Positions 3,001 to 46,528 of a stretch of 64,000 bases of DNA are shown in pieces. The stretch covers positions 1,920,001 through 1,984,000 of the forward strand of contig CP000071.1 in assembly GCA_000002445.1 (NCBI GenBank). Reading direction: 5' to 3'. Both the position numbers and the translations under genes were made by a program. Position 1 is the stretch's first letter. Every line of letters begins with the position of its first letter. Source of the stretch: Trypanosoma brucei (Eukaryota). Below the pieces are notes generated by a model that worked only from the letters and a program-made list of their open reading frames with translations, was not told the origin of the DNA and did no database searches.

Positions 3001-3119
3001 GATTTTTATTTTCTAAAATAATGATAATAATGATAATAATAATAATGGTGGAGGAAAGCGCTGCATTGCAAATAAATGAAAGGAATCGTAAAGAAAAATA
3101 AATGGGACAAAAGGTAAAA

Positions 3120-3150
<31 letters not shown>

Positions 3151-7250: not shown

Positions 7251-8704
7251 TTCCCTTTTCTTTTCTTTACACACCCTTGTTTTCTAGGTGCAACCAAACA
7301 GCCAACGGGTCGTCAGGGTGGCAGTCGTGCCTCCGTTTGTAATATTTCGCTGAAGTCCTCTCTTCCTTCCTGCTACTTCGGGATGCGCGTGTAGTGGTGA
7401 AGATCGACACGTCAACTTCTTTTGGAACGAGCTCACCTCCTTTTCTTTATTCTTTCTTGTAACTTTCTTTACTTGTTTGCTCGCTGAAAGTGTTTTTTCA
7501 CCTGAACTTTTAATTACCTACGTATTGGGTTGCAGGTTTTGGTTGTGTAAAGGGGAATCAGTCGAAAATACAAAAAGAATGAAAAAAGAAAAAAAATTGA
7601 AATGTACTAGCTGCTAGCCGCATTAACCGATGACGGGGACAAGCGGAAGATGGTTAACACCTCCAGCTTGCAATAGGTTACGGAAACCCACAAGCACATC
7701 TAAACAGACTGTGTGTGCACACAAAGTATAAAAACAATTATGCGGCATGTGTACAACTAATACATGAAAGTTTTCTGGCAACGAAAGCGCCATCCGCAGA
7801 GGCACTGATACACTATTGACCATGGGCTCACTACACCCCGGCCACGGCATACATTAATACATACAAAGTGTGACGCAGTGGTAGGGACTGAAAAAGAGAA
7901 AATATGAAAAAAAAACAATAGCAGTGACAGTGACAGTACAGGCGGGTAAAAGCAGTATGAATAGGTAAAAAGGAGGAACCGAATGAATGAAAGAGAAGTG
8001 TGTGGTTGGCGTGATTGAACCGCTGTTGGGCGCCCCTTCGGTCCATTAGCCCCATCACCTCTACTTGCACCCTGTTCACCACCACAATACATAATATCAT
8101 CCGTGTTAGACATAAATATGCGCGATGTGCGTAAAGAATCGCGAAAATGTACGACACTGTTTACATCAAAATTACACTCATTCCTTCCTAAGGCACAAAC
8201 CAAGCACCACTACTCCCCTCTCCCTTTTCCGTCTTTCTCTGTCATGAATTTGTCTCCTCCTTGTTTCTTTTCTTTGTTGATTATGCTTCTTTCACATTCT
8301 TTTATTCTCTCTTCTCCCTGACCTGGCATTCACGTTTGGCTTGGCTCATGAAGACTATACATTGAGATGTGAATGAACGGTACACATACACGCATCCGTT
8401 GTCCTCCTTCCTCCTTTCACTCCGATATCGCAGTCGGTTGCCCTGTTCTGCCATGGATCAATTACCCTTCCTTCTTGTCACCCAAACCCTCACACTTCCC
8501 CCCAACACACACACACACCTGTCCACGTATTCATTCTTAACCCATTCTGCTAGCCGCAGCCCGCATACTGGTAGGCTTTACTTATTTAATTTGTTCCCTA
8601 TACACACCAATACCACTTCATTACGCGCGGTGACAACTGAAAGGGAAGAAGTGGGGGACAGCGCGCTGGCAGGAGGAGGGGTTTTTGTACAGACCAAGAT
8701 TTTC

Positions 8705-19367: not shown

Positions 19368-21149
19368 AGGACAAAACACTAAAAAATAAGTAATACACAA
19401 ACTTTATACAACGACACAATACCAACCACAACCTCAAAATAAACTTGCGTATCGCTGAGAGGCGGAGTGATGTGAGCGCTGAGGCGCAAATATATAGAAA
19501 GAGGGTTAAAAAATCCCTTTCCCACAGGTTCACTGACTCCCCTCTCCAGCCAATGTACTCTTTTTTCTTTTCTGTACCCCTTCCCTAATTATGTCGTAAG
19601 GGTTGCCTACACACACACGGGTAAACAGACAGGTGATTACAAGATGGGTAAGGGTGAGAAACGAAGTTCAAATATAAACGCGTCGACGGCGGGGCACCTA
19701 ACACAAGGGCAGTATTGAAGATAATCAATGAATTCTGTGGACAGATGGAACGCAGGAAAAAAAATAAAACCAAGACATATGTAGACTGCTGCCACTGTAG
19801 GCAGGACTCTTCCTCTCCCTCTCTGTACACATTCTCTCCCATTACCCCCTACCGCTTTCCTTTTCACATACAGACACGCTTGTGAGGCGCAAAACACAAT
19901 TAGAAGAAAGGAACGGATTTACACATACACACGTAATGATCATCACCTCAGCTTAGCTGAACTCCCCGCACCCTCCAGTAAAGAATCCGAAAAATGCGTA
20001 TTTTTATCGTACCTCGAATATAACGATTGCGTTATGACCAGTAGCGATAACATCAACAACACGGAGGTCCCAGTCACCGGCAGCTCTTTTGGTAATAACA
20101 GGGAAAGAAAACACAACAAATAAATAAATAAAGTACGAACAAGAAGAATAGCATTTCCCTTTCTTCCAGCGGCTTATGGGCATCAGGAGAGGAAAGACAA
20201 TGGAAACTCCCCCAATGAAAGATGGCGGAAGCGTTGCACACACACAATCGTAAACGGGCATATACTCCTCCGTGTCTGAAACAGAAAGAACGACAAACAG
20301 ACAAGTAAAGCGATGTTATTAAGCCTACCACCGCGACAGCAAGCAGAATATATATATATATATATGAAATAGATAGACCGGTACGCCCACAGAGACAAAT
20401 AAAATTACGCCCACACACCTATTGACGGTAAAGCAACACTATAGTGATGTAATTAATGTTTACAAACCGACGTCTACGTACTAGGGAACAAATTTGATGA
20501 CAATAAAAGGTGTGTACCTCAATGGAAATGAAAAAAAAATAAGTAAAAGCACATATTTGCCGCGTAACGGAAACTGAATCATCTCGACCACATGCCTTCG
20601 CGCCTCTTTCTTTGCATTCGCATGAAACGAGAGAAAGGTTCACAAACATGTTGAATTAACTTTAGGGGAAAGAACGAAAAAATGTACAGACAAATAGGTG
20701 GTCGGTACACCCTCTCAGACATCCCTTCACACACGTGAACAGGTGCGAAGAGGCGTGACGACGACGGTAAACAAAAATAACACTGCACAGGGATCTAACT
20801 CAGGGGAAACGGAAGAATCATATTAGTGATCACAAAAAAAAATATCTTTCCCATTTTTTAGAGAAGCGAAGGCGCACAATGGTGAATGCCCGCCGAACGT
20901 AACCCACGGTGAGAATACCCTAAAGCGAATCCAGGAATACTCAAGGATATATAGACAGAGAAAGAGAAGCACAGAGACGTCTTTTTTTTTTTTTCACTCC
21001 TTGCAAACCCTTCAGTATCCGCTTCCCTCCTCAGATTTTCCTCCCCACAATCCTCTTGCACCTCCCATTGGGTGCAGGCATACAAATGCACAATGAAAAG
21101 AGGGATGAATTTTCCCAACCTTTTGTTCCGCTTCCTCACGTTTGGATCA

Positions 21150-22793
21150 TTAAGAAGCCTCCGGCGAGGTCTTGGCACTACCCCAAACACAAGAACCACG
21201 GAGCATGACATAAATCCCGACCGCAAACATCAGACTTCCAAGGAGAAACCCGACGGAAAGCATGAAGACACCCGGCGTTATATCTTCACAGTCCGGCATG
21301 GCAGTTAGCGCAATGTCGAGCATAAAATTACATTCCAGCAGCGGTCGACCTATTGAAAGTGCAACACTGACGTTACGCGACCGTGCAGCCACACGTACGA
21401 CTTCGATAGAGACGTTCTTTGCCCTGCCCTCCGTACAATTGGCCGCACACTCCACTACCGTGCAAGAATTTCCGGGAGTAGGGCATGAACCAACGAAGGC
21501 CTTCACCCGTGTGTCCTCCAGTACTGTTGCTGTGATGCCAAAGTTTGGACACTCATCGGATGAGGTGATATTCTTTCCACAAGTCAGAACCTTCACGGGA
21601 AAAGTACCACCCACATTCCTAGCTGCCGCATGACTTACAAACCCACTTGCTATGAAAGAAGCAGGGGCGTCAGGGGATATGTCGCTAGATCGCGTGTTCG
21701 GCTTACCGTTTCTGTCTTTGAGGTAACCAGAAGGCACATAACCATCATAAGATACACTTGATCCCGAAAAACGACTCATACTTGGGCCACGCATATCCAG
21801 ATTATCACAGTTATCAAGCAAATAATTGCAAGCCTCCCTACAAATGCCAATCTCCGCGTCTGTCACTTTCTTGTTAATAGCATCAGGGCGAAACTTGCTA
21901 TTGCATAATGGGATTCCGTACCACTGGATAATGCCAGGCTTTCGCTCACGGTGAAGTGCAATCTCGCCACACACAGATGAAGAAGCATAGCTCAACAGGA
22001 ACAAAACAGCACCGCCAACTGAAAAAACAAGCCCGAAAACGAAATATGCACAAGCGAAGCATTCGGGCACTATCAAAGGACCTCGGCGACAGCAAGCAAG
22101 AATAACCATCGGAGCCATCAACGCAATACATACGGAACCCACCGCATAAGAAACAACAGGTAACAACTTAATATAATCTCCCGCTCTACCTCTCAACATT
22201 TCAACAACACGAACGGCGTTTTCCGATATATCATAGAAAAAGCTCACATCAACACCATCAGCGTATGGCTCTCTATTTCCAGAGGTCCAGTTAGACGCAA
22301 AATCAATAACTTTTTCCGCAGTGCAGTTCACAACATTCAACGGATTCATCAATGTTACATCGAGAAAATAATTTGAGGTTGCCCACAACTGCTTCACCCC
22401 AAAGAACACAAATGCAGCAACACCAAAAGCCCATATTAAAGCAAACATAATCCACATCCAAAGGCAGCAACGTTGTTCCTTACCTCCGTCCTTAGAGGAA
22501 GGCTTGCAACGGGAGGAACACAGGCATGTAAGAAAGCAAGATATGGGGAAAGCAATTAACACAGCCACGAAAAGGAAAGCACAGAGAGCAGGCATTGCTA
22601 ACATACGCCACTGCGCTAAGATACGGTCGGTATCCATAATGCACGTAAGAGGGTCATTTCGAGCACTGGGCCCATCCCAGACATTGTCACAGTGAAGATT
22701 TGGAAACTTGGAGTTTCCGCATTGCGTAACTGTTAACAACAGCACCAATAACACTGCAGCATAGAAAGAGCTGCCAGTGGTAACGGAGGACAT
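21150..22793 (-). CDS. Array copy A, 547 aa: signal peptide plus 5-TM (pentaspan) Cys-rich membrane glycoprotein. It is the most divergent paralog.
   Basis: ATG at 22791-22793. N-terminal 44 aa 'MSSVTTGSSFYAAVLLVLLLTVTQCGNSKFPNLHCDNVWDGPSA' is identical to copies B-D. Hydrophobic helices lie at ~aa 65-90, 108-132, ~205-228, ~235-262 and the C-terminal 'FMLSVGFLLGSLMFAVGIYVML'. Conserved motifs: 'CLCSSRCKPSSKDGGKEQRCCLWMW' and 'ALSIGRPLLECNF'. Several N-x-S/T sequons. Confidence 0.8.
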   Translation of the reverse strand: MSSVTTGSSFYAAVLLVLLLTVTQCGNSKFPNLHCDNVWDGPSARNDPLTCIMDTDRILAQWRMLAMPALCAFLFVAVLIAFPISCFLTCLCSSRCKPSSKDGGKEQRCCLWMWIMFALIWAFGVAAFVFFGVKQLWATSNYFLDVTLMNPLNVVNCTAEKVIDFASNWTSGNREPYADGVDVSFFYDISENAVRVVEMLRGRAGDYIKLLPVVSYAVGSVCIALMAPMVILACCRRGPLIVPECFACAYFVFGLVFSVGGAVLFLLSYASSSVCGEIALHRERKPGIIQWYGIPLCNSKFRPDAINKKVTDAEIGICREACNYLLDNCDNLDMRGPSMSRFSGSSVSYDGYVPSGYLKDRNGKPNTRSSDISPDAPASFIASGFVSHAAARNVGGTFPVKVLTCGKNITSSDECPNFGITATVLEDTRVKAFVGSCPTPGNSCTVVECAANCTEGRAKNVSIEVVRVAARSRNVSVALSIGRPLLECNFMLDIALTAMPDCEDITPGVFMLSVGFLLGSLMFAVGIYVMLRGSCVWGSAKTSPEAS

Positions 22794-23350
22794 TGTTTCA
22801 CGTGCAAGTATATTACTTATACCTTTTTGTCTTCATTCCAACAACATAGGAGGAAAGCAAAAGTGATATAAAGTAAAGTGGGAATGTTGGAGACAACAAA
22901 TACAGGTATGTATGTATTCATAAACATGTGCATATATTCACAATAAAATACCGGTGTAGTAATTTAGCCAAGGCACAAGCAAATACTAGCAGTAACTCCT
23001 CGTTGATATAATCATCAGGAGACACATGCGTATAAAAAAACCACACGCAAATCATATGGAATTGCAAGTAGTGCCAATAAGGAGCGACAGCGGTAAGGCG
23101 CCTGAGCATAACCACATATTTCATTACACCCAAACTTCTAGAAGGGAAATTATCCTCCTACGAGCTGGGCGATGACTACATGCCGGCTTAACACCAACCC
23201 AAGTAGAAACCTCCACATACACACACACACACACAAAGAGGGAAAACAAACCTGCACTGAACATCGTGTTGACATGTGGTAACAGCGACACACTTAGGGT
23301 GCCGGATGGGAAAAACACATCCCCGGATATAGATATATTTAAAAAAGAGA
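22794..23350 (-). repeat. Conserved ~550 bp upstream block of the array unit (copy A). It is presumed to hold the 5'UTR, the polypyrimidine/trans-splice acceptor region and the distal 3'-processing region.
   Basis: Near-identical to 25432-25990, 28136-28690 and 30765-30954. The mRNA strand is pyrimidine-rich 60-110 nt upstream of the ATG. It contains a shared (CA)8-10. Confidence 0.7.
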
Positions 23351-23646
23351 AATGAGGACATCACTTTTCGACAAGTCACATAATCTAAGGGTTGACAGTC
23401 CGTATCTTCTTCTGAGAGGAGCTTTTTTTTCCTTTTATTCCATATTGACAGGGAAAGTAAAAACATATCGATGTATTTACATGAAATGTCTCACCTTACA
23501 CAGACAAAGTATGATGACGACACGGACAGAAACTACTAATAAAGCAATAAAAATCAAATATATAACATGTAAACTCGGGAAAGTACACACAACAAGGATC
23601 GGAGTATTCCAAGGCATCCCATATAAAATAAACACATTCACTACCC

Positions 23647-25431
23647 TCATTCTCGAACGTATTCCTTATTCTCCCTCAAATCCCCTTCATCTTTTAGTTT
23701 GTTGCAACCTTCTGGATCACTCCAAATACAGGAACCACGAAGTAGTATATAGATGGACAGCGCAAACATCATACCACCCAAGAAAAGGGCAGCCGAAAGC
23801 ATCATCGCACTACCAAAGAAATCTCCACAGTGGGGCAGAGCTGTCAGCAAAGTATCAAATATGAAGTTGCATTCCAGTAGCGGGCGACCAATGGAAAGTG
23901 CAATACTTACATTAGTTGCTAATCCCGCAACGGTGACAAGTGTACCCGCCATACCTTTAGCTTCATCTCCCCTACATTTCTCTGCGCATTCTTGCAGAGT
24001 GCACGCCCTGCCATCACCTGGGCAAATCAGATAACCCCCCTTAACCTTTGTGTCACTAATGACAGCGGCAGTAAAACCAAAACTCGAACATTCAGTGGCA
24101 TCCTGAAGACCTTTTCCACATTTGAGCGGTTTATTGTTAGGACCAAGCGGCAGGCCTAGAAACTGAGAAGTTGTAGCGGGTATTAAATTCCCGCTGCCAG
24201 GAAAACGGGACTGCAACGCGTCGGCCCCAGCTGCACCAAGAGTAACATTGGCTTTATTACTGACGTTGCTGGTAACTCCGGGTATGTTGGGTCCAAATTT
24301 AGCTTCCAACTCCTTTTCGTTTTCAAAGTCCTCTGGTTTCATGTCGGGTGGGAGAGCCTTTGGGTCCAATCCGGGTGGGAGATTCCTTCCAAGAAGGGCA
24401 GCCACTCCTCCCACACCAGTTATATCACCGAGTTGTGATGTGTCATTATCACAGTACTCGAGAATTTTTGTACATGCCTTCTGCGACACATCCTTCTGGG
24501 CATTGAAAATCATCTCGTTAAGATTCGCAAAATTAAACTTTTCTTGACACATGGGTAAAGCATACAGCTGAATCAATCCCGGGCTCCGATCGTAGTGCAA
24601 AGCAACTTCACCACAGATAGTGCCGATGACGTACGACAACAGAATCATGAGAAAACCAAGCGCCATAAACAGGATTGCAAATAGCCAATATACACACGAG
24701 AGCAACCGCGGTAACCACTTGCTACAGCAGCGGAAGTAAGCGAACACAAACATGGGAACCATCACTAAAATCGCAAAAGTTCCGATGCAGAAGGAAACAG
24801 TGGGGATCCAGCGCATATACTGCTTGTAAGCTGCCCTCCCCTCATCAATATAACCCCTAGCAAGACCAAGAACACTATCTATCGTTTCGCGACTAATTCC
24901 CTCCTGTAACGACTGATTTTTACCCCAGTCAAACGCTAATTTAAGAATCTTATCTGCAGTACAGTCTAGGAAATTTATTGGATTTTCCACCGTTTTCATT
25001 ATGAGGGTAGTGGCAGCTGTCTCAAGCTGCCGGGCTCCAAAGAACACAAATGCAGCAACACCAAAAGCCCATATTGAAGCAAACATAATCCACATCCAAA
25101 GGCAGCAACGTTGTTCCTTACCTCCGTCCTTAGAGGAAGACTTGCAGCGGGAGGAACACAGGCATGTAAAGAACCAAGATATGGGGAAAGCAACTAATGT
25201 TGCCACGAGTAATAGAGCAGCCAAGGCTGGAACAAAAATATCCTCCCAATGAGATAAGATACGTTTCTTGTCCTTAATGCACGTAAGAGGGTCATTTTGA
25301 GCACTGGGCCCATCCCAGACATTGTCACAGTGAAGATTTGGAAACTTGGAATTTCCGCATTGCGTAACTGTTAACAACAGCACCAATAACACTGCAGCAT
25401 AGGAAGAGCTGCCAGTGGTAACGGAGGACAT
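23647..25431 (-). CDS. Array copy B, 594 aa: pentaspan Cys-rich membrane glycoprotein paralog.
   Basis: ATG at 25429-25431. Same N-terminus and TM pattern as copies A, C and D. Large second extracellular loop (~280 aa) with a conserved Cys framework. Confidence 0.85.
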   Translation of the reverse strand: MSSVTTGSSSYAAVLLVLLLTVTQCGNSKFPNLHCDNVWDGPSAQNDPLTCIKDKKRILSHWEDIFVPALAALLLVATLVAFPISWFFTCLCSSRCKSSSKDGGKEQRCCLWMWIMFASIWAFGVAAFVFFGARQLETAATTLIMKTVENPINFLDCTADKILKLAFDWGKNQSLQEGISRETIDSVLGLARGYIDEGRAAYKQYMRWIPTVSFCIGTFAILVMVPMFVFAYFRCCSKWLPRLLSCVYWLFAILFMALGFLMILLSYVIGTICGEVALHYDRSPGLIQLYALPMCQEKFNFANLNEMIFNAQKDVSQKACTKILEYCDNDTSQLGDITGVGGVAALLGRNLPPGLDPKALPPDMKPEDFENEKELEAKFGPNIPGVTSNVSNKANVTLGAAGADALQSRFPGSGNLIPATTSQFLGLPLGPNNKPLKCGKGLQDATECSSFGFTAAVISDTKVKGGYLICPGDGRACTLQECAEKCRGDEAKGMAGTLVTVAGLATNVSIALSIGRPLLECNFIFDTLLTALPHCGDFFGSAMMLSAALFLGGMMFALSIYILLRGSCIWSDPEGCNKLKDEGDLRENKEYVRE

Positions 25432-25990
25432 TGTTTCACGTGCAAGTATATTACTTATACCTTTTTGTCTTCATTCCAACAACATAGGAGGAAAGCAAAA
25501 GTGATATAAAGTAAAGTGGGAATGTTGGAGACAACAAATACAGGTATGTATGTATGTATTCATAAACATGTGCATATATTCACAATAAAATACCGGTGTA
25601 GTAATTTAGCCAAGGCACAAGCAAATACTAGCAGTAACTCCTCGTTGATATAATCATCAGGAGACACATGCGTATAAAAAAACCACACGCAAATCATATG
25701 GAATTGCAAGTAGTGCCAATAAGGAGCGACAGCGGTAAGGCGCCTGAGCATAACCACATATTTCATTAAACCCAAACTTCTAGAAGGGAAATTATCCTCC
25801 TACGAGCTGGGCGATGACTACATGCCGGCTTAACACCAACCCAAGTAGAAACCTCCACATACACACACACACACACACAAAGATGGAAAACAAACCTGCA
25901 CTGAACATCGTGTTGACATGTGGTAACAGCGACACACTTACAATGCGGTATGGAATAAAGGTATTGCCGAATATTTTTTAAAAAAAGAGA
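25432..25990 (-). repeat. Conserved upstream block of the array unit (copy B).
   Basis: Sequence identity to 22794-23350 and 28136-28690. Confidence 0.7.
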
Positions 25991-26287
25991 AAGCAGTAAA
26001 CAGGGAGCAATTATTTTATACCGCAACGCAATCGAAAAGTAGAAGGTTAACTCTTTCTTCTAGTTGAATTTTAGTCCTTTTTTTCCCGACACACTAATAG
26101 GTCGAGAAAAAAATAATTACGTCCGTATTTACATGAAATGTCTCACCTCACAATCGTCCCGTGAATGCGACGCAAGCAAAAACTATTAATAAAGCAATAA
26201 AAATTAAATATATGACGTGTAAACTCGGGAAAGTATACACAACCCGAATAACAGTACTCCGGGGTGTCCCATATAAAACAAACACGT

Positions 26288-28135
26288 TTACTGTTCTTCT
26301 TTCTTCCCATACCCTTCACAGTCATTGGTCTCTTCATGATTATTATTATTTTTTTTTCCGCAATCCTCTTCATCCTCATCCTCATACTCCTCTTCTTCGT
26401 CTTCATCTTGACTTTTCAAATTAGTCCAAATACAGGAACCACGAAGTAGTATATAGATGGACAGCGCAAACATCATACCACCCAGGAAAAATCCAACAGC
26501 AAGCATCATCGTGCTGCCAAAAATGTCGGCACAGTTAGGCAAAGCTGTCAGTACGGTATCAAATATGAAGTTGCATTCCAGTAGCGGACGACCAATGGAA
26601 AGTGCAATACTTACATTAGTTGCTAATCCTGCAATAGTAACAAGTTTATTTGCCATTTCCTTAGCTTCATTCCTTCCACAGCTAGTCGCACATTCTTGCA
26701 GAGTGCATGCCCTGCCAACCTCTGGGCAGACGAAAAGCTTCCCTTTAACCTTTGTGTCACTGATGACAGCAGCAGTAAAACCAAAACTCGAACATTCAGT
26801 GGCATTCTTAAGATCCTTTCCACATTTCAGGTACTTCTCAGATGAATGAGGTAATGCACGGTAAAGCTCAGAGAGTTTAGCGTGTGCTAGGTCCCCATTG
26901 CCTTCACGAGGGTACCGCAACCCACCAGTCCCAGCTGCAACGAGAGGGAAATCACGCCGGGTGTTAGGATTACCAGCGACTCCGGGTATGTTGGGTCCAA
27001 ATTTAGCTTCCAATTCTCTTTCGTTTTCAAAGTCCTCTGGTTTCAAGTTAGCTGGTAGAGATTTTGGGTCCAATCCGGGTGGGAGATTCCTTCCAAGAAG
27101 GGCAGCCACTCCTCCCACACCAGTTATATCACCGAGTTCAGATGCATCTCCATCACAGTACTCGAGAATTTGTTCACATGCCTTCTGCGACACATCCTTC
27201 TGGGCATTGAAAACCATCTCGTTAAGATTGGCAAAATTAAACTTTTCTTGACACATGGGTAAAGCATACCATTGAATCAATCCCGGGCTCCGATCGTAGT
27301 GCAAAGCAATTTCACCACAGATGGATCCAACAGCGTACGACAACAGAATCATGAGAAAACCAAGCGCCATAAACAGGATTGCAAATAGCCAATAAACACA
27401 CGAGAGCAACCGCGGTAACCACTTGCTACAGCAGTGAAAGTAAGCGAACACAAACATGGGAACGATCAAGGAAACCGCAAAAGTTCCGATGCAGAAAGAA
27501 ACAGTGGGAACCCAATGTACGTATTGTTCATAGGTTGCCCTCCCCTCCCGAACATAACCCCTAGCAAGACCAACAACACTATCTATCGTTTCGCGACTAA
27601 TTCCATTCTGTAACGGCCGCTTTGCACTCCAGTCATACGCTAAATCAAGAATCTTATCTGCAGTACAGTCTAGGAAATTTATTGGATTTTCCACCGTTTT
27701 CATTATGAGGGTAGTGGCAGCTGTCTCAAGCTGCCGGGCTCCAAAGAACACAAATGCAGCAACACCAAAAGCCCATATTAAAGCAAACATAATCCACATC
27801 CAAAGGCAGCAACGTTGTTCCTTACCTCCGTCCTTAGAGGAAGGCTTGCAACGGGAGGAACACAGGCATGTAAGAAAGCAAGATATGGGGAAAGCAACTA
27901 ATGTTGCCACGATAATGAAAGCAGCAGCAACCGGAAATGCAATCTTCTGCCATTGGCCTTTCATGAGATCTGCATCTTTCAGACACTTCATAATTTCATT
28001 TTGAGCACTGGGCCCATCCCAGACATTGTCACAGTGAAGATTTGGAAACTTGGAGTTTCCGCATTGCGTAACTGTTAACAACAGCACCAATAACACTGCA
28101 GCATAGAAAGAGCTGCCAGTGGTAACGGAGGACAT
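26288..28135 (-). CDS. Array copy C, 615 aa: pentaspan Cys-rich membrane glycoprotein paralog with an acidic C-terminal tail.
   Basis: ATG at 28133-28135. TM helices lie at ~66-90, 111-133, 211-233, 244-270 and 555-580. Tail: 'QDEDEEEEYEDEDEED'. Confidence 0.85.
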   Translation of the reverse strand: MSSVTTGSSFYAAVLLVLLLTVTQCGNSKFPNLHCDNVWDGPSAQNEIMKCLKDADLMKGQWQKIAFPVAAAFIIVATLVAFPISCFLTCLCSSRCKPSSKDGGKEQRCCLWMWIMFALIWAFGVAAFVFFGARQLETAATTLIMKTVENPINFLDCTADKILDLAYDWSAKRPLQNGISRETIDSVVGLARGYVREGRATYEQYVHWVPTVSFCIGTFAVSLIVPMFVFAYFHCCSKWLPRLLSCVYWLFAILFMALGFLMILLSYAVGSICGEIALHYDRSPGLIQWYALPMCQEKFNFANLNEMVFNAQKDVSQKACEQILEYCDGDASELGDITGVGGVAALLGRNLPPGLDPKSLPANLKPEDFENERELEAKFGPNIPGVAGNPNTRRDFPLVAAGTGGLRYPREGNGDLAHAKLSELYRALPHSSEKYLKCGKDLKNATECSSFGFTAAVISDTKVKGKLFVCPEVGRACTLQECATSCGRNEAKEMANKLVTIAGLATNVSIALSIGRPLLECNFIFDTVLTALPNCADIFGSTMMLAVGFFLGGMMFALSIYILLRGSCIWTNLKSQDEDEEEEYEDEDEEDCGKKNNNNHEETNDCEGYGKKEEQ

Positions 28136-28690
28136 TGTTTCACGTGCAAGTATATTACTTATACCTTTTTGTCTTCATTCCAACAACATAGGAGGAAAGC
28201 AAAAGTGATATAAAGTAAAGTGGGAATGTTGGAGACAACAAATACAGGTATGTATGTATTCATAAACATGTGCATATATTCACAATAAAATACCGGTGTA
28301 GTAATTTAGCCAAGGCACAAGCAAATACTAGCAGTAACTCCTCGTTGATATAATCATCAGGAGACACATGCGTATAAAAAAACCACACGCAAATCATATG
28401 GAATTGCAAGTAGTGCCAATAAGGAGCGACAGCGGTAAGGCGCCTGAGCATAACCACATATTTCATTACACCCAAACTTCTAGAAGGGAAATTATCCTCC
28501 TACGAGCTGGGCGATGACTACATGCCGGCTTAACACCAACCCAAGTAGAAACCTCCACATACACACACACACACACAAAGAGGGAAAACAAACCTGCACT
28601 GAACATCGTGTTGACATGTGGTAACAGCGACACACTTAGGGTGCCAGATGGGAAAAACACATCCCCGGATATAGATATATTTCTTAAAAG
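28136..28690 (-). repeat. Conserved upstream block of the array unit (copy C).
   Basis: Sequence identity to 22794-23350 and 25432-25990. Confidence 0.7.
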
Positions 28691-28979
28691 AGAAAGCAGT
28701 AAACAAGGAATTTTTTTCCACAGCTAATTTAGGGAGAAAAAGTCAATGTTTTCTTCCGACCGAAACATATATTCCCTTTTTACCCATACTGACAGGGAAA
28801 GTAAACACATATCTCTGTATTTACATGAAATGTCTCACCTCACAATCGTCCCGTGAATGCGACGCAAGCAAAAACTATTAATAAAGCAATAAAAATTAAA
28901 TATGTAACGTGTAAACTCGGGAAAGTACACACAACCCGAATAACAGTACTCCGGGGTGTCCCCCATCCAGTACACGCAA

Positions 28980-30764
28980 TTATTTCCTTGCAGGGCTTTT
29001 GTCAGACTCCCTTTTGTTCTCAGAGTCCTTCTCTTCATCTTCATCCCATCTTTTCAGATCACTCCAAACACAAGATCCACGAAGTAGTATATAGATGGAC
29101 AGCGCAAACATCATACCACCCAAGAAAAATCCAAGACCAAGCATCATCGTTCCCCAATACAAACCGTCACAGTTAGGCAGAGCAGTCAGTACGGTATCAA
29201 ATATGAAGTTGCATTCCAACAGCGGGCGACCAATCGAAAGCCCAATGCTTACATTAACTGCGAGTTGAGCAGCACCCACAAGTGTTTTTGCAATGTTTTG
29301 TGCGTCCGGAACTTTACACTTATCTGCACAAACTTGCAGACTGCAGGGTCTGCCACCATCCGGACAAACCATATAACCCCCCTTAACTTTTGTTCCACTG
29401 ATGACCGCGGCGGTGAAACCAAAGGTTGAACATTCTTCTTTGCTTCCAACCCCCTGGCCACATGTCAGCATCTTATTGCTAGGGCCAAATGGCAGTTGGG
29501 GGAACTGAGTCGCCTTGGCACCAATTACATCCCTCATGTTCCCCGGTAGTGAACCATCAGGGGGAACGCTGCCTTCATAGCGGCGTGGAATCTTCTCCTT
29601 ATCATTAACTCCTGGGATATGTGACTCCAATAAGCTGTCCAAACCCTTTTCGTCTTCAAAGTCCTCTGGTTTCACTCCAGGTGGGAGAGCCTTTGGGTCC
29701 AATCCGGGTGGGAGATTCCTTCCAAGAAGAGCAGCCAGCCCTCCTGTGCCGGTTTGATCACCGAGTTGTGATGTGTCATTATCACAGTACTTGAGAATTT
29801 CTTCACATGCCTTCTGCGACACATCCTTCTGGGCATCTAAAATCATTTTGTTAAGATTCGCAAAATTAAACTTTTCTTCACACATGGGTAAAGCATACCA
29901 TTGAATCAATCCCGGGCTCCGATCGTAGTGCAAAGTTATTTCCCCGCAGACGAGACCGAAGGCATACGCCAACAATAGAATTACTAAACCAAGCGCCGTA
30001 AACAGGATTGCAAATAGCCAATATACACACGAGAGCAACCGCGGTAACCACTTGCTACAGCAGCGGAAGTAAGCAAACATAAACATGGGAACCATCACTA
30101 AGACCGCAAAAGCTCCGATGCAGAAAGAAACAGTGGGAACCCAATGTACGTACTGATCGTAATACCCTTTCGCCATGGTAATGTAACTCCTCGCCATGTC
30201 AACGGTGCTATCTATTGTTTCCCGGCCAATTCCCTCCCGCAGTGGCTCTCCTGTCCTCCAGTCATACGCTAAACCAAGAATCTTATCCGCGGTACACCTG
30301 AGGGAATTCAGCGGTCTGTTAACCCGGTGAGATAGCAAATCGTCCAACGTTATCTTAAGCTGCTGTGCTCCAAATAAAACGAAGACAGCAACACCAAAAG
30401 CCCATATAAAAGCAAACGCAATCCACATCCAAAGGCAGCAACGTTGTTTCCTACCTCTGTCCTTAGAGGAAGGCTTGCAACAAGAGGAACACAGGCATGT
30501 GGAGAAAAAGGTCAGTGGAAAAATGACCACGATTAAGGCGAGAAGTAAACCAGCCAAAACTGGTAACAAAATATCCTCCCAATGAGATAAGATACGTGTC
30601 TTGTCCTTAATGCACGTAAGAGGGTCATTTTGAGCACTGCGTGTAGTCCACAATTTCTGGCAGCCGAGATTTGGAAACTTGGAATTTCCGCATTGCGTAA
30701 CTGTTAACAGCAGCACCAATAACACTGCAGCATAGGAAGAGCTGCCAGTGGTAACGGAGGACAT
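28980..30764 (-). CDS. Array copy D, 594 aa: pentaspan Cys-rich membrane glycoprotein paralog.
   Basis: ATG at 30762-30764. Same architecture as copies A-C. The N-terminal ectodomain segment differs ('NLGCQKLWTTRSAQ'). Confidence 0.85.
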   Translation of the reverse strand: MSSVTTGSSSYAAVLLVLLLTVTQCGNSKFPNLGCQKLWTTRSAQNDPLTCIKDKTRILSHWEDILLPVLAGLLLALIVVIFPLTFFSTCLCSSCCKPSSKDRGRKQRCCLWMWIAFAFIWAFGVAVFVLFGAQQLKITLDDLLSHRVNRPLNSLRCTADKILGLAYDWRTGEPLREGIGRETIDSTVDMARSYITMAKGYYDQYVHWVPTVSFCIGAFAVLVMVPMFMFAYFRCCSKWLPRLLSCVYWLFAILFTALGLVILLLAYAFGLVCGEITLHYDRSPGLIQWYALPMCEEKFNFANLNKMILDAQKDVSQKACEEILKYCDNDTSQLGDQTGTGGLAALLGRNLPPGLDPKALPPGVKPEDFEDEKGLDSLLESHIPGVNDKEKIPRRYEGSVPPDGSLPGNMRDVIGAKATQFPQLPFGPSNKMLTCGQGVGSKEECSTFGFTAAVISGTKVKGGYMVCPDGGRPCSLQVCADKCKVPDAQNIAKTLVGAAQLAVNVSIGLSIGRPLLECNFIFDTVLTALPNCDGLYWGTMMLGLGFFLGGMMFALSIYILLRGSCVWSDLKRWDEDEEKDSENKRESDKSPARK

Positions 30765-30954
30765 TGTTTCACGTGCAAGTATATTACTTATACCTTTTTG
30801 TCTTCATTCCAACAACATAGGAGGAAAGCAAAAGTGATATAAAGTAAAGTGAGAATGTTGGAGACAACAAATACAGGTATGTATGTATTCATAAACATGT
30901 GCATATATTCAATAAAATACCGGTGTAGCAATTTAGCCAAGGCACAAGCAAATG
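30765..30954 (-). repeat. Truncated conserved upstream block of the array unit (copy D). It ends at the stop codon of the Mus81-like gene.
   Basis: Identical to the other copies for ~190 bp. It then diverges exactly where the upstream gene's CDS ends (30955). Confidence 0.7.
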
Positions 30955-32799
30955 CTAGCAGTAACTCCTCGTCAATATAAATTTTGTTAGACACAAATAT
31001 ACTTCTTTTTGTGGCTTCGTCAGGCGATGTATATCTGGGTCAGCGTCGCAGGCATCTACTCCTTGGTATTTCAGCCGGCGCCACAGCCCCAACAGAGAAC
31101 CATACTTCGACGCGAGCTGAATTGCCAGAGGTGCAGAGCAACCCCTTATACACATAAGCATGCGGGGAAATGTAGTCCGAGCCTGGATATCCTTTCTTAT
31201 TTTGTTGATGTATTGTAGGCATTCAGTGCAGTTAGTTACCAACGTTTCTGGGCATTGTTCCATTTTAGTTTTGCACAGTATTGAGCCTACTGACTTCCCA
31301 AGGCTACGGAGAAAGGTGGCTGTTTCAGACAAATGACGTGTCCACACGACACGGAAACGTGGAAGAGACGCAAGCGAGGCACAAGCAGAAAGAACCCGCC
31401 GTCGCTCCTCAACCGTGATGGACTCCATTGTTCCCTCCACAACCCACACAACAGAACGGAAAGGGGACGATGACAGCAGTTGCCGCTGCTCGTAGTAACG
31501 TGAAGAGGTAATGCTGGCACAAAGATCCTTTACTGTTTTCCTTTCCACCACAAGGAATGAGATTTTTTGCGTCTGTCCGTACATTGCCCCTTCACGAAGA
31601 ACAGTGCAACCGGCAGCGTTGCGGCATTGATAATCCGGCACGTTCGCCGAGTTTGCTGAGCACCCAACATTAGGTGAATTGATTCCTATCATAAAGTCTC
31701 CGCACGGGAGGGTGCATGAAACACTAGGCGCGCCGGCGCGGGAACATACTTCGATTAGGTTTTCGTGTGCACCCTTGATGCGTTCGCGGTTATCAACGAG
31801 AAGGTGCCAAGAATAGTTGTTGGAGCAACCCTCTTCTTTAGGCGTCTCGTTTTCATCAGCATCTATATCAGTAGTATTTGTCGGCATGCTGGGTGTTGAA
31901 TGCACCAGCTTCCTTTCCCTCTGCTGGGAGGCAACAAACTCCTTTGGAGTTCCTAGAAGTCGGCCCTGTGGTTCTGACCCTCCTTCCGCCAACGAAGTAG
32001 TTGGTGCAATGTCGGTGTTGGGTGAACGGAACAACGTCCTGAGGCGTTGACCGTGTCGGATCATATCGCTTACTGTTGAAGTGTGCCCTGCAGAGCTCAT
32101 AGATCTGGAGCACCTTTCCGAATCCTCCCTGAGGTGGGACAACACCTCAGCTTGAGAATCAGGAACATATCGTGGTTTCGGTGAAGTCTCCGCAAGCTTA
32201 GAGGCGCCGTGTTTACGGAGCCTCGCGATGAGATGCACTTTGGTTCCACTACCCAAGAGGCCTTTGGACAAACATCGATCGCGCAGCTCCCTCCAACTGA
32301 GTTTTTCCTCCGGTAGTGGCTCACCACTTTGACAACCGGTGGTTGAAGAATGCATTAAACTCGTACCCGCTTCCCCACGAGAGTTATGGAGCTGGTCAAA
32401 GTGCCAGTCAGAATTGCCACTCCACACTGCCGGCTGGCCAGAGAGTAAAGGGGGACCACCTTCTGTGCGCTGCATTTTAAAACAGCGGAATGGCGAGAAG
32501 GGGAAGCTAACGGACCTCCTCAGCGCAGCAACAGAAACCTCGCCGTCTCGTGCAAGCATTTCATCATTCGTAGAGTTGTCATCGCCCAAAACTTCTCGAC
32601 CGTGGCGGGGGGCCAACATTGCGCAGAACGCTTCCGTCGCACGAACGGCCTCTGGACAACTGCCATGAAGCTGCGTCCCAGCGGCGCCACTGCTAATTGG
32701 CAGTGGATATCGCCTCAACGCGGCGCAAAATTCTGGAAAGCGCTGAGGCCATCTACGCTCAATATACGAGGCAATTCTTTCGTTATGGCTGTTCGGCAT
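30955..32799 (-). CDS. ERCC4-family structure-specific endonuclease with a SAP-like motif and C-terminal HhH region; Mus81-like.
   Basis: ERCC4 catalytic motifs 'LLVDNRERIKG' and 'FLVVERKTVKDLCASI'. SAP-like 'LSWRELRDRCLSKGLLGSGTKVHLIARLRKHG'. The ~614 aa size fits Mus81 rather than XPF. The track start at 32829 is TTG; the first ATG is at 32799 (MPNSHNER...). Confidence 0.65.
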   Translation of the reverse strand: MPNSHNERIASYIERRWPQRFPEFCAALRRYPLPISSGAAGTQLHGSCPEAVRATEAFCAMLAPRHGREVLGDDNSTNDEMLARDGEVSVAALRRSVSFPFSPFRCFKMQRTEGGPPLLSGQPAVWSGNSDWHFDQLHNSRGEAGTSLMHSSTTGCQSGEPLPEEKLSWRELRDRCLSKGLLGSGTKVHLIARLRKHGASKLAETSPKPRYVPDSQAEVLSHLREDSERCSRSMSSAGHTSTVSDMIRHGQRLRTLFRSPNTDIAPTTSLAEGGSEPQGRLLGTPKEFVASQQRERKLVHSTPSMPTNTTDIDADENETPKEEGCSNNYSWHLLVDNRERIKGAHENLIEVCSRAGAPSVSCTLPCGDFMIGINSPNVGCSANSANVPDYQCRNAAGCTVLREGAMYGQTQKISFLVVERKTVKDLCASITSSRYYEQRQLLSSSPFRSVVWVVEGTMESITVEERRRVLSACASLASLPRFRVVWTRHLSETATFLRSLGKSVGSILCKTKMEQCPETLVTNCTECLQYINKIRKDIQARTTFPRMLMCIRGCSAPLAIQLASKYGSLLGLWRRLKYQGVDACDADPDIHRLTKPQKEVYLCLTKFILTRSYC

Positions 32800-33554
32800 T
32801 AACACATCAAAGAGCAAGTTTGCATGCAAAAGACCTTCCCGTCCACCTTATACAAAAATGGATGTTCCCGCTTTTGACTGGCCTTTGAACGACGGTCAAC
32901 GCTGGCGCCTTCCATTAGCCCGCAGAAGCGGGAAACGTTTGTGAGAATAAGAAGCAAAAAGGAATGGGATCAGTGCAATGTACAAGAGCAACAAAACGCA
33001 TGTTGGGCGGGTGAGTGAATGGACAACACAAACACGAAGAATCACCATTCACTTTTCACACACTCAGGCACACCAACGGAACAGACGTGATAGTAGATTG
33101 CTATTCGTTAGACAAAATAGGGACAGAAGAAAGGCAAAGGGGGACAAGATACGATCTCAGTGCTCTGGAAACTTGCTGATTCTCTTTTTTCTTTTCGGAC
33201 ATTTCTTTCTTTTTTTGTGCATATACCTCTCTCCACAACCAATCTTTACTGACCCATTCCCATTCGCTCCCACTTCCTTTTCTCACGTCTTCTACATTGT
33301 CCTTGGCTCCTTCACCTTCCCTCCCCTGGCTTCTGTCCCCCCCCCTACGCGTTAGGTGTGCTTAACAAGGGCTAAGTTAAAATAAAATAATGGTGATAAC
33401 AAGAAATACAAATAAACAAATAAATATATACGCTAAACGCACTTTGCCTATTTTATTACTTTTTTATTAAAAAAAAAAAAATAACTCCGTTAATTTACTT
33501 TTTGTATCCCTTTTCTTAGTTAAACACCTTAGGCTCCACCGAAAAAGAGTGAAC

Positions 33555-46447: not shown

Positions 46448-46526
<79 letters not shown>
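46448..46526. repeat. (CA)n/(TG)n microsatellite, ~39 units.
   Basis: Perfect dinucleotide run visible at 46448-46526. Confidence 0.95.

Positions 46527-46528
<2 letters not shown>

What the first reader, a model, noticed from the sequence alone, without database searches (positions are those of the whole stretch)
21150..30764. Predicted prominin-like topology: signal peptide, 5 TM, Cys-rich small cytoplasmic loops, two extracellular loops
Hydrophobicity read by eye on copy C gives a signal peptide at 1-25 and TM helices at ~66-90, 111-133, 211-233, 244-270 and 555-580. The short loops between TM1/TM2 ('CSSRCKPSSKDGGKEQRCC') and TM3/TM4 ('HCCSKWLPRL') are Cys-rich, so they are candidate palmitoylation sites. 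The large TM4-TM5 loop (~285 aa) carries N-glycosylation sequons and a conserved Cys framework. An N-out, C-in pentaspan with a Cys-rich first cytoplasmic loop is the prominin (CD133) arrangement. Our proteins are smaller, with a short first extracellular loop. This is a topology resemblance only, not a homology claim.
Basis: inference. Interest (0 to 1): 0.5.

Follow-up and report, generated by a model that had tools for sequence, protein, structure and literature searches.

The report
Trypanosome surface proteins related to Tweety/prominin
Four tandem Trypanosoma brucei genes encode a five-pass cell-surface glycoprotein (already catalogued as Fam72/ESP24, function unknown) that turns out to be a distant relative of the animal Tweety/prominin membrane proteins, which suggests testable roles in lipid handling or membrane shaping at the parasite surface.

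Summary
The window is T. brucei TREU927 chromosome 8. Coordinates 21150-30764 (- strand) hold four tandem paralogues of 547-615 aa, probably Tb927.8.6700-6730. Each has an N-terminal signal-like segment, five hydrophobic helices, two Cys-rich short loops and a 270-aa Cys-framed loop. One correction: TM5 lies at about 541-566, not 555-580.

The T. brucei copies themselves fall below both Pfam cut-offs and lack prominin's large first loop. I file them as a divergent kinetoplastid branch of the Prominin/Tweety superfamily, closest to TTYH.

The genes are not new. They are Fam72/ESP24, enriched in the bloodstream-form surface proteome and GFP-localised to the flagellar pocket, cell body and flagellum, and annotated hypothetical. 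I found no paper making the Tweety/prominin link. Function is inferred only: outer-leaflet lipid handling, or membrane bending.

The parts
28980..30764 (-). Paralogue A, 594 aa, 65.4 kDa (XP_847503 / Q57TU0; probably Tb927.8.6730 = ESP24)
   Evidence: ORF. Exact match to a T. brucei TREU927 protein. Molecular weight. The gene ID is inferred from accession order and from the array papers.
26288..28135 (-). Paralogue B, 615 aa, 67.7 kDa (XP_847502 / Q57TU1; probably Tb927.8.6720).
   Evidence: AF2 model ma3e58b24e3d4 has pLDDT 83 and pTM 0.73.
23647..25431 (-). Paralogue C, 594 aa, 64.7 kDa (XP_847501 / Q57TU2; probably Tb927.8.6710)
21150..22793 (-). Paralogue D, 547 aa, 59.1 kDa (XP_847500 / Q57TU3; probably Tb927.8.6700). 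It is the most divergent copy: 43-47% identical overall, with a shorter EC2 insert and a different second cytoplasmic loop.
28061..28135 (-). Copy B aa 1-25: signal-peptide-like hydrophobic N-terminus (MSSVTTGSSFYAAVLLVLLLTVTQC)
   Evidence: KD peak at 4-25. Identical or nearly identical in all four copies. Cleavage was not tested.
27944..28060 (-). Copy B aa 26-64: N-terminal ecto-segment carrying the family motif C35-x3-W-x-GPS-x2-N-x4-C51
   Evidence: C35, W39 and C51 are 90-92% conserved in 86 sequences. pLDDT is about 96.
27866..27943 (-). Copy B TM1 (aa about 65-90)
27806..27865 (-). Copy B cytoplasmic loop 1 (aa 91-110), Cys-rich (LCSSRCKPSSKDGGKEQRCC). A candidate palmitoylation site. 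This region matches the Pfam Prominin and Tweety profiles.
   Evidence: 5 K/R in this loop. The family averages 14.9 Cys per 100 aa here. Pfam sub-threshold hits cover this region. It aligns to the TTYH2 loop CTCCCRRDH..QQESCC.
27734..27805 (-). Copy B TM2 (aa about 111-134), continuing as a long extracellular helix to about 165
27509..27733 (-). Copy B extracellular loop 1 (aa 135-209, about 75 aa), a helical hairpin
   Evidence: The family mean length is 76 aa.
27437..27508 (-). Copy B TM3 (aa about 210-233)
27407..27436 (-). Copy B cytoplasmic loop 2 (aa 234-243, HCCSKWLPRL)
   Evidence: the family averages 13.3 Cys per 100 aa and has no sequons here.
27326..27406 (-). Copy B TM4 (aa about 244-270)
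26516..27325 (-). Copy B extracellular loop 2 (aa 271-540). It has 12 conserved Cys (273, 295, 320, 327, 438, 448, 470, 477, 482, 486, 521, 535), sequons N444 and N507, and a low-confidence, variable, Pro-rich insert at about 331-432.
   Evidence: C273, C521 and C535 align with Cys of TTYH2.
26438..26515 (-). Copy B TM5 (aa about 541-566)
   Evidence: It aligns with TM5 of TTYH2.
26291..26437 (-). Copy B cytoplasmic C-terminal tail (aa 567-615), strongly acidic and variable between copies
22906..23205 (.). A 300-nt intergenic block upstream of copy D. It is 100% identical to 25548-25847 and 28248-28547 (upstream of copies C and B) and marks a homogenised 5' flank of the array unit (period about 2.63-2.70 kb).
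   Evidence: the repeat finder families D1 and D3.

Best explanation
SHOWN. The region is a four-copy tandem array on T. brucei chromosome 8, published as array 75 and Fam72, and probably Tb927.8.6700-6730. It encodes paralogous membrane glycoproteins. Each has a signal-like N-terminus, a small disulfide-bearing N-terminal ecto-segment and five TM helices. Each also has two short, basic, Cys-rich cytoplasmic loops, a helical first extracellular loop of about 75 aa, a second extracellular loop of about 270 aa with 12 conserved Cys, and a cytoplasmic tail. The family is widespread in Kinetoplastea. By profile, fold and transitive Pfam evidence it is a divergent branch of the Prominin/Tweety superfamily, structurally closest to the Tweety homologues (TTYH). 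Published proteomics and GFP tagging place ESP24 (Tb927.8.6730) on the whole bloodstream-form surface: flagellar pocket, cell body and flagellum.

INFERRED, at about 0.35-0.4. By analogy with TTYH, the long helices that extend TM2-TM5 above the membrane, together with a disulfide-stapled helical flap after TM4, would form a membrane-proximal hydrophobic groove open to the outer leaflet. Lipids or sterols could move through that groove between the parasite plasma membrane and extracellular carriers such as host lipoproteins. The Cys-rich cytoplasmic loops would be palmitoylated and help partition the protein into ordered or curved membrane. The variable, disordered insert in loop 2 would be the most exposed part.
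For: Identity. All four ORFs match T. brucei TREU927 proteins exactly. The array is described.

Topology. Supported.

Family size. An exhaustive HMMER search found 139 representatives at 50% identity with E<1e-3. They include T. congolense, T. melophagium, a T. brucei chr 11 paralogue and the prokinetoplastid Apiculatamorpha.

Homology.
- The 86-sequence profile against PDB sequences puts TTYH in the top seven places: TTYH2 at E 5.2e-8, TTYH1 at 4.7e-5 and TTYH3 at 2.7e-3. The match is collinear over TM1-TM4 and over the pre-TM5 helix plus TM5, with three aligned Cys.
- The Foldseek top 10 are all TTYH1-3, with probability 0.96-1.0.
- Family member P0141 passes the Pfam Tweety gathering score (42.4 against 31.8 bits; profile 36-330 of 431). 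It has the family's 12-Cys framework and matches a Trypanosoma-only profile at hhalign probability 98.6%, E 1e-15.
- Member P0042 passes the Pfam Prominin gathering score (36.1 against 34.3 bits) and matches the same profile at E 2e-60.
- In all, 11 of 86 members hit Prominin and 3 of 86 hit Tweety at E<0.1.

Surface location. ESP24 is 72.7-fold enriched, and Tb927.8.6720 33.8-fold enriched, in the surface-labelled proteome. The GFP fusion is on the flagellar pocket, cell body and flagellum (PMC4587319 supplement).

Mechanistic analogy. TTYH has a hydrophobic cavity with a disulfide-stabilised E3-E4 flap (PMC8361169). TTYH2 accelerates lipid transfer from APOE lipoproteins (PMC12328215). The genes for the T. 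brucei lipoprotein receptors remain unidentified (PMC9719944).
Against: - The T. brucei copies are far below both Pfam thresholds on their own: Tweety 17.4 bits, Prominin 10-12 bits.
- A Trypanosoma-only 20-sequence profile does not reach significance against solved TTYH (E 0.033 and 1.2). The sequence link therefore depends on the broad profile and on bridging members.
- Foldseek TM-scores are low (0.3-0.4) and E-values modest (1.5e-3).
- I could not read the model coordinates. The hydrophobic cavity, the disulfide pairing and any dimer interface are unverified.
- ESP24 was not scored in endosomes, whereas TTYH2 acts in endosomes.
- The family also occurs in non-blood-dwelling kinetoplastids, so a role specific to host lipoproteins cannot be ancestral.
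- No functional data (RNAi, lipid assays) were found.
Confidence: 0.7

Rival explanations
1. Same fold and family, but the working function is prominin-like membrane shaping. The protein would sort to and stabilise curved, sterol-rich membrane and promote the nanotubes and extracellular vesicles that bloodstream trypanosomes shed, rather than transferring lipids.
For: Prom1 and Ttyh1 both induce protrusions and extracellular vesicles when expressed (PMC10659291). Bloodstream T. brucei releases nanotubes that break up into VSG-positive vesicles (PMC8406259 abstract). ESP24 is on the flagellar membrane as well as the cell body. The Cys-rich cytoplasmic loops fit raft or curvature partitioning.
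Against: Vesicle induction by Prom1 and Ttyh1 was shown by overexpression only. ESP24 is spread over the whole surface and is not concentrated at protrusions. I could not obtain the trypanosome vesicle proteome. The conserved Trp of prominin TM5 has no counterpart here.
Confidence: 0.25
2. A lineage-specific kinetoplastid pentaspan whose likeness to prominin/Tweety is convergent: the same topology and Cys-rich loops, but no common ancestry.
For: The T. brucei sequences alone give only sub-threshold Pfam hits. A Trypanosoma-only profile is not significant against solved TTYH. Identity to TTYH in structural alignments is 9-13%. Matches between TM-rich proteins can be inflated by composition (bias 16.5).
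Confidence: 0.07
3. A surface receptor, adhesin or antigenic decoy. The large Cys-framed loop 2 and its variable insert would bind a host or vector ligand, with the pentaspan core serving only as an anchor.
For: The loop-2 insert (aa 331-432) and loop 1 are the most divergent parts between paralogues: 14-59% and 21-79% identity. The insert is predicted to be disordered. The protein is exposed on the whole surface. TTYH authors also considered a receptor role.
Against: dN/dS is about 0.4 in every region, with no sign of positive selection. The family is conserved across kinetoplastids with very different hosts. The most conserved parts are the membrane-proximal ectodomain and the Cys framework, not the tip.
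Confidence: 0.15
4. An anion channel, as Tweety proteins were first annotated.
For: Only the historical annotation of TTYH as Cl- channels (mentioned).
Against: Structural and functional work on TTYH refuted the channel role (PMC12328215; PMC8361169). Nothing here indicates a pore.
Confidence: 0.03

Closest known systems
Tweety homologues TTYH1-3 (Pfam PF04906; solved structures 7p5j, 7p54, 7rtt, 9qnr)
   Different: The T. brucei copies score only 17 bits against Pfam Tweety. They have a signal-like N-terminus plus a conserved Cys-W-GPS-N-Cys ecto-motif. Loop 1 is shorter (about 75 aa). Loop 2 is much larger (about 270 aa, against about 120 aa per extracellular domain quoted for Ttyh), with 12 conserved Cys and a disordered insert. 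Dimerisation, the Ca2+ site and the lipid cavity were not verified.
Prominin-1/2 (CD133; Pfam PF05478)
   Same: Signal peptide plus pentaspan N-out/C-in topology, a Cys-rich first cytoplasmic loop and a large glycosylated second loop of similar size (about 270-280 aa). The Pfam Prominin profile (positions about 85-227, covering TM1, the loop and TM2) matches 11 of 86 family members, one of them above the gathering score. Ttyh has been proposed as a distant prominin homologue.
   Different: Loop 1 is about 75 aa rather than more than 250-300 aa. The proteins are 550-615 aa against a Pfam Prominin profile that alone spans 799 positions. The Pfam match covers only about 18% of that profile. No conserved Trp was seen in TM5. 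No solved prominin chain was among the listed PDB matches, and the AlphaFold libraries were unavailable.
T. brucei Fam72 / ESP24 (Tb927.8.6700-6730), as already published
   Same: These are the same genes. They are tandem array 75 of 'hypothetical proteins', Fam72 of the cell-surface phylome, and ESP24 of the bloodstream surface proteome, with localisation to the flagellar pocket, cell body and flagellum.
   Different: Those papers give no family assignment or Pfam motif, and six TM segments are predicted in the proteome table. The link to Tweety/prominin, the five-TM-plus-signal reading and the structural model are added here.
Tetraspanins / peripherin-2 / claudin-like four-helix membrane proteins
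   Different: They have four TM helices, not five, with both termini cytoplasmic. Their scores sit at the level of generic helical bundles. Sequence signal is a single marginal sub-threshold Pfam Tetraspanin hit in one family member (E 0.0094).

Membership tests
Tweety (TTYH, PF04906) | Five TM helices, N-terminus outside, C-terminus in the cytoplasm | tested here: met
   Hydropathy and AF2 helices agree. Family-wide positive-inside and sequon-outside statistics support the orientation. Surface labelling of ESP24 is consistent. No dedicated topology predictor was available.
Tweety (TTYH, PF04906) | Sequence match to the curated Pfam model above the gathering score (31.8 bits) | tested here: not met
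   The best window copy scores 17.4 bits, E 0.0019, over residues 68-133 only. Family member P0141 passes at 42.4 bits, and P0033 scores 24.1 bits.
Tweety (TTYH, PF04906) | Significant profile match to solved TTYH sequences | tested here: met
   With the 86-sequence profile, TTYH2 scores E 5.2e-8, TTYH1 4.7e-5 and TTYH3 2.7e-3. With the Trypanosoma-only 20-sequence profile the matches are not significant (E 0.033 and 1.2). The result therefore depends on profile breadth.
Tweety (TTYH, PF04906) | TTYH fold: a TM bundle whose helices extend into an extracellular helical domain with the same connectivity | tested here: met
Tweety (TTYH, PF04906) | Membrane-proximal hydrophobic cavity covered by an E3-E4 helical flap held by two conserved disulfides | tested here: inconclusive
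   Two helices follow TM4 (286-298 and 301-326). Conserved Cys at 273, 295, 521 and 535 are present, three of them aligned to TTYH2 Cys. Model coordinates could not be inspected, so the cavity and the pairings remain unverified.
Tweety (TTYH, PF04906) | Homodimer through the distal extracellular domain, with a Ca2+ site | not tested
   Only a monomer was modelled.
Tweety (TTYH, PF04906) | Facilitates lipid transfer between lipoproteins and membranes | not testable with these tools
   This needs lipid-transfer assays.
Prominin (PF05478) | Signal peptide plus five TM helices in a 2+2+1 pattern, with small cytoplasmic loops under 25 aa | tested here: met
   Cytoplasmic loop 1 is 20 aa and loop 2 is 10 aa in the T. 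brucei copies. The criteria are those stated in PMC10659291.
Prominin (PF05478) | Two large extracellular loops (more than about 250-300 aa each) | tested here: not met
   Loop 1 is about 75 aa (family mean 76). Loop 2 is about 270 aa (family mean 199).
Prominin (PF05478) | Cys-rich first cytoplasmic loop | tested here: met
   There are 5 Cys in 20 aa in copy B, and 14.9 Cys per 100 aa family-wide.
Prominin (PF05478) | Sequence match to the curated Pfam model above the gathering score (34.3 bits) | tested here: not met
   Window copies score 10-12 bits (E 0.06-0.18) over TM1-TM2 only. Family member P0042 passes at 36.1 bits but covers only profile positions 85-227 of 799.
Prominin (PF05478) | Near-invariant Trp in TM5 (human W795) | tested here: not met
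   No Trp reaches 70% conservation anywhere in or around TM5 in the 86-sequence alignment. The Trp of the 'RGSCxW' motif lies after TM5 and appears only in the Trypanosoma-subset consensus. No direct alignment to prominin TM5 was possible.
T. brucei Fam72 / ESP24 | Identity with the published genes Tb927.8.6700-6730 | tested here: met
   The ORFs match TREU927 chr 8 proteins XP_847500-847503 exactly. The flanking RecQ and ERCC4 genes and the array descriptions agree. The one-to-one mapping of copies to gene IDs is inferred from accession order.

The most novel reading that the evidence does not exclude
The Fam72/ESP24 proteins are the trypanosome's own Tweety-like lipid-unloading machinery. 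Exposed over the whole bloodstream-form surface and flagellar pocket, they would dock host LDL/HDL particles, or other carriers, and let cholesterol and phospholipids slide through a hydrophobic groove into the parasite membrane. That would make them the missing molecular component of lipoprotein lipid scavenging. The genes for the biochemically described T. brucei lipoprotein receptors have never been identified (PMC9719944).
Probability: 0.15. Interest if true: 0.8.

Novelty: new member of a known kind. Interest (0 to 1): 0.45.

Why it matters
Invariant multi-pass proteins exposed over the whole surface of bloodstream trypanosomes are few, and this one has been 'hypothetical' since the genome was published. 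Placing it in the Prominin/Tweety superfamily gives it a fold and a short list of testable activities: lipid or sterol exchange with carriers, membrane curvature and vesicle or nanotube release, and palmitoylation-dependent sorting.

It also extends a family best studied in animals to deep-branching kinetoplastids. That helps in asking what the ancestral job of prominin/Tweety proteins was.

If the lipid-transfer analogy holds, it would bear on how a sterol-scavenging parasite strips lipids from host lipoproteins, where the receptor genes are still unknown. It would also point to an invariant, surface-exposed target.

Tried and rejected
- **Word-indexed protein searches.** Three searches, with a single copy, the 4-copy alignment and the 86-sequence alignment, returned only T. 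brucei-group proteins. Only the exhaustive HMMER search revealed the family.
- **AF2 on the four paralogues alone.** The model had pLDDT 44.6 and was unusable. I discarded it in favour of the 86-sequence run.
- **Narrow profiles against PDB.** The 4-copy profile found nothing. The Trypanosoma-only profile was not significant for TTYH. I report this as a limitation.
- **AlphaFold-database fold search.** The afdb50 library, which would have allowed comparison with the human PROM1 model, is not installed. P0042 against PDB found no prominin chain.
- **Pfam scans of 60 family members in batches.** Most of the scanned members give no hit. The prominin and Tweety signal is limited to a minority of members.
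- **Naming the organisms of distant members.** They come from unnamed metagenome or SRA assemblies.
- **Literature.** I found no paper linking tweety or prominin to trypanosomes. A search for 'Fam72' was swamped by human FAM72 papers. The Szempruch 2016 vesicle proteome and the Shimogawa 2015 surface proteome are not held.
- **Readings rejected.** The anion-channel reading is refuted for TTYH itself. The tetraspanin or claudin reading fails on helix count and on weak scores. Positive selection on exposed loops is not supported, since dN/dS is about 0.4 in every region.

Full report
**What is there.** The window is Trypanosoma brucei brucei TREU927 chromosome 8. All four ORFs in 21150-30764 match deposited TREU927 proteins exactly (XP_847500-847503, UniProt Q57TU3-Q57TU0), on a contig of 2,481,190 bp. 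They lie on the - strand, as does every other long ORF in the window. That is the pattern of a trypanosomatid polycistron.

The four copies are:
- A: 28980-30764, 594 aa
- B: 26288-28135, 615 aa
- C: 23647-25431, 594 aa
- D: 21150-22793, 547 aa

They repeat with a period of 2.63-2.70 kb. A RecQ-type helicase (14721-19400) and an ERCC4/MUS81-type nuclease (30955-32829) flank the array.

The literature knows the array as tandem array 75, 'hypothetical protein Tb927.8.6700'. It has four copies in T. b. brucei and three in T. b. gambiense (PMC1855330, PMC2854126). It is also Fam72 of the cell-surface phylome (the label is in the PMC4587319 supplement), with tandem positional homologues in T. congolense and T. 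vivax (PMC3605285).

**Checking the observation.** A 19-residue Kyte-Doolittle scan gives the same picture in all four copies: an N-terminal hydrophobic segment at about 4-25 and five strong segments. In copy B these are at 65-90, 111-134, 210-233, 244-270 and 541-566. Everything else agrees.

I had no TMHMM or SignalP, so I tested orientation statistically on an 86-sequence family alignment.
- K+R density is 1.50, 1.53 and 1.86 per 10 aa in the two short loops and the proximal C-tail. It is 0.80, 0.89 and 0.79 in the N-terminal segment and the two long loops.
- N-x-S/T sequons occur at 0.9-1.5 per 100 aa in the proposed external parts and 0-0.33 in the proposed cytoplasmic parts.
- The two short loops carry 13-15 Cys per 100 aa.
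- Twelve Cys in the large loop and two in the N-terminal segment are 79-100% conserved.

This is what an N-out, C-in pentaspan looks like, with disulfide-bonded ectodomains and palmitoylatable cytoplasmic loops. Signal-peptide cleavage remains inferred. If the first segment is not cleaved, the orientation of the rest does not change.

**Finding the family.** Word-indexed searches found only T. brucei-group sequences. An exhaustive HMMER search with the four-copy profile found 139 cluster representatives at E<1e-3, 52 of them at E<1e-30. Named members come from T. congolense, T. melophagium, a second T. brucei locus on chromosome 11 (XP_828270, 570 aa) and the prokinetoplastid Apiculatamorpha spiralis. 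Many others are from unnamed assemblies. The family therefore spans Kinetoplastea. It is defined by an N-terminal C-x3-W-x-GPS-x2-N-x4-C motif, a CC-x2-C-type first cytoplasmic loop, a 'CGE...R-PG..QWY.VP.C' stretch after TM4 and a fixed Cys framework in loop 2.

**Relationship to Tweety and prominin.** Four lines of evidence converge.

1. *Pfam.* The T. brucei copies give only sub-threshold hits. Prominin scores E 0.056-0.18 (residues 71-166 against profile 96-200), and Tweety scores E 0.0019 (residues 68-133 against profile 41-102). Across the 86 aligned members, 11 hit Prominin and 3 hit Tweety at E<0.1. P0141 (Apiculatamorpha) passes the curated Tweety cut-off with 42.4 against 31.8 bits, covering profile 36-330 of 431. 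P0042 passes the curated Prominin cut-off with 36.1 against 34.3 bits, although only over profile 85-227 of 799. Both are unambiguous homologues of the T. brucei proteins. A Trypanosoma-only 20-sequence profile that contains neither of them matches P0042 at hhalign probability 100%, E 2e-60 over 441 columns. It matches P0141 at 98.6%, E 1e-15 over 317 columns. P0141 also carries the full 12-Cys framework.

2. *PDB sequences.* The 86-sequence profile searched against all PDB sequences puts Tweety homologues in the first seven places: TTYH2 at E 5.2e-8, TTYH1 at 4.7e-5 and TTYH3 at 2.7e-3. The match has two collinear stretches, TM1-TM4 and the pre-TM5 helix plus TM5. The family Cys at the end of TM4 and the two Cys before TM5 align with TTYH2 Cys. 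The Cys-rich TM1-TM2 loops also align.

4. *Secondary structure.* The model mirrors the published TTYH plan. TM2, TM3, TM4 and TM5 continue as long helices above the membrane (H105-165, H181-233, H239-280, H489-569). Two short helices after TM4 (286-298 and 301-326) sit where TTYH has its disulfide-stapled E3-E4 flap.

**Caveats on the homology.** The Trypanosoma-only profile is not significant against solved TTYH (E 0.033 and 1.2). The direct sequence link therefore needs the broad profile or the bridging members. Foldseek TM-scores are low (0.3-0.4). I could not inspect coordinates, so the cavity, the disulfide pairs and dimerisation are unverified. The AlphaFold-database libraries were not available, so I could not compare directly with a prominin model.

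**Membership.** The proteins work like, and are very probably related to, Tweety/prominin proteins. As members they are outliers.
- Against Tweety: topology and fold are met, the curated sequence threshold is not, and the cavity and dimer are untested.
- Against prominin: the signal peptide, the 2+2+1 pentaspan pattern and the Cys-rich first loop are met. The two large (more than 250-300 aa) extracellular loops, the conserved TM5 Trp (criteria from PMC10659291) and the Pfam threshold are not met.

I therefore file them as a divergent kinetoplastid branch of the Prominin/Tweety superfamily, nearer to Tweety. Features specific to this branch are the N-terminal Cys-W-GPS-N-Cys segment and a much enlarged loop 2 with 12 Cys. 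In T. brucei copies A-C, loop 2 also carries a Pro-rich, low-confidence insert (about 331-432) that is shorter in copy D.

**What is already known about the protein.** In the bloodstream-form surface proteome of Gadelha et al. (PMC4587319), Tb927.8.6730 is ESP24. It is 72.7-fold enriched after surface fluoresceination. Its GFP fusion localises to the flagellar pocket, cell body and flagellum, one of the few validated proteins found on the whole surface. Tb927.8.6720 is 33.8-fold enriched. Both are listed as Fam72, 'hypothetical', with no Pfam motif. This independently supports a plasma-membrane protein with large exposed loops. I found no paper that connects these genes, or trypanosomes in general, with Tweety or prominin. 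One preprint does mention prominin-like sequences in 'excavates' without detail.

**How it most likely works.** The shown steps are surface location, pentaspan N-out topology, the TTYH-like fold and the conserved ectodomain Cys framework. The mechanism is inferred. TTYH proteins have a wide hydrophobic cavity rising from the outer leaflet, and TTYH2 speeds lipid transfer from APOE lipoproteins to membranes (PMC8361169, PMC12328215). By analogy I propose that the trypanosome proteins offer outer-leaflet lipids or sterols a hydrophobic path between the parasite membrane and extracellular carriers. The Cys-rich cytoplasmic loops would be acylated for lateral sorting. I put this at about 0.35-0.4.

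The main rival, at about 0.25, is prominin-like membrane shaping. Prom1 and Ttyh1 both drive protrusions and vesicles, and bloodstream trypanosomes shed nanotubes that become vesicles. A receptor or decoy role for the variable loop-2 insert is possible, at about 0.15. However, dN/dS is about 0.4 in every region and shows no sign of positive selection. Convergence without homology (about 0.07) and an anion-channel role (about 0.03) are disfavoured.

**Evolution of the array.** The copies are mosaics. B and D are identical or nearly identical over codons 1-134 (dS close to 0) but only about 25-58% identical beyond that. A 300-nt upstream block is 100% identical in three units. This indicates gene conversion of the 5' end together with its upstream flank. 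The ectodomain loops and the C-tail are left free to diverge.

**Verdict.** The genes and their surface location were already known. The family assignment appears to be new and gives a long-standing 'hypothetical' surface protein concrete, testable functions. It is a new member of a known kind and of moderate interest (0.45). The most novel reading that remains open is that these are the parasite's lipoprotein lipid-unloading proteins, where the receptor genes are still unknown. I give that a probability of about 0.15.

Noticed in passing
window 22906-23205, 25548-25847, 28248-28547; CDS 5' ends at 22608-22907, 25246-25545, 27950-28249, 30579-30878: The array units are mosaics. A 300-nt upstream block is 100% identical in three units. 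The first ~134 codons of copies B and D are identical or nearly so (dS close to 0), although the rest of the two proteins is only about 25-58% identical. This looks like gene conversion confined to the 5' end and its upstream flank.
   Followed up: partly
window 21150-22793 (copy D): Copy D is a distinct subtype. It is 43-47% identical to the others, and its second cytoplasmic loop is CCRRGPLIVPE instead of xCCSKWLPRL. Its loop-2 insert is shorter, and it carries more sequons (6 against 2-5).
   Followed up: partly
window 1-4500: A long AT-rich stretch (GC 0.27-0.31, against about 0.50 in the rest of the window) lies downstream of the last - strand gene (RRM protein, 5250-7274). The only ORF over 200 aa in it is a TTG-start ORF at 3449-4078. 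There is a purine-rich 37-nt repeat at 2807-2899. It may be the end of a polycistron or another non-coding landmark.
   Followed up: no
window 46448-46527: A perfect (CA)40 dinucleotide microsatellite.
   Followed up: no
window 14721-19400 and 30955-32829: Two DNA-repair genes bracket the surface-protein array. One is a 1559-aa RecQ-type helicase (DEAD, Helicase_C, RecQ_Zn_bind, HRDC). The other is a 624-aa ERCC4-domain (MUS81-like) nuclease.
   Followed up: no
protein P0012 (3193 aa, EukProt gene model; not in the window): A single gene model contains nine matched stretches of the family profile. It is probably a tandem array of several family genes fused by gene prediction in another kinetoplastid.
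   Followed up: no
protein P0017/P0152 (XP_828270, T. brucei chr 11; not in the window): T. brucei has a further single-copy paralogue of 570 aa on chromosome 11, annotated only as 'transmembrane protein'. It is about 33% identical to the chr 8 copies and gives a sub-threshold Pfam Prominin hit (E 6.8e-5). Any knock-out study of the array should take it into account.
   Followed up: partly
window 26291-26437 (copy B C-terminal tail): The cytoplasmic tail of copy B is extremely acidic (DEDEEEEYEDEDEED...) and unrelated in sequence to the tails of the other copies. The tails are the least conserved part of the proteins, at 21-43% identity.
   Followed up: no
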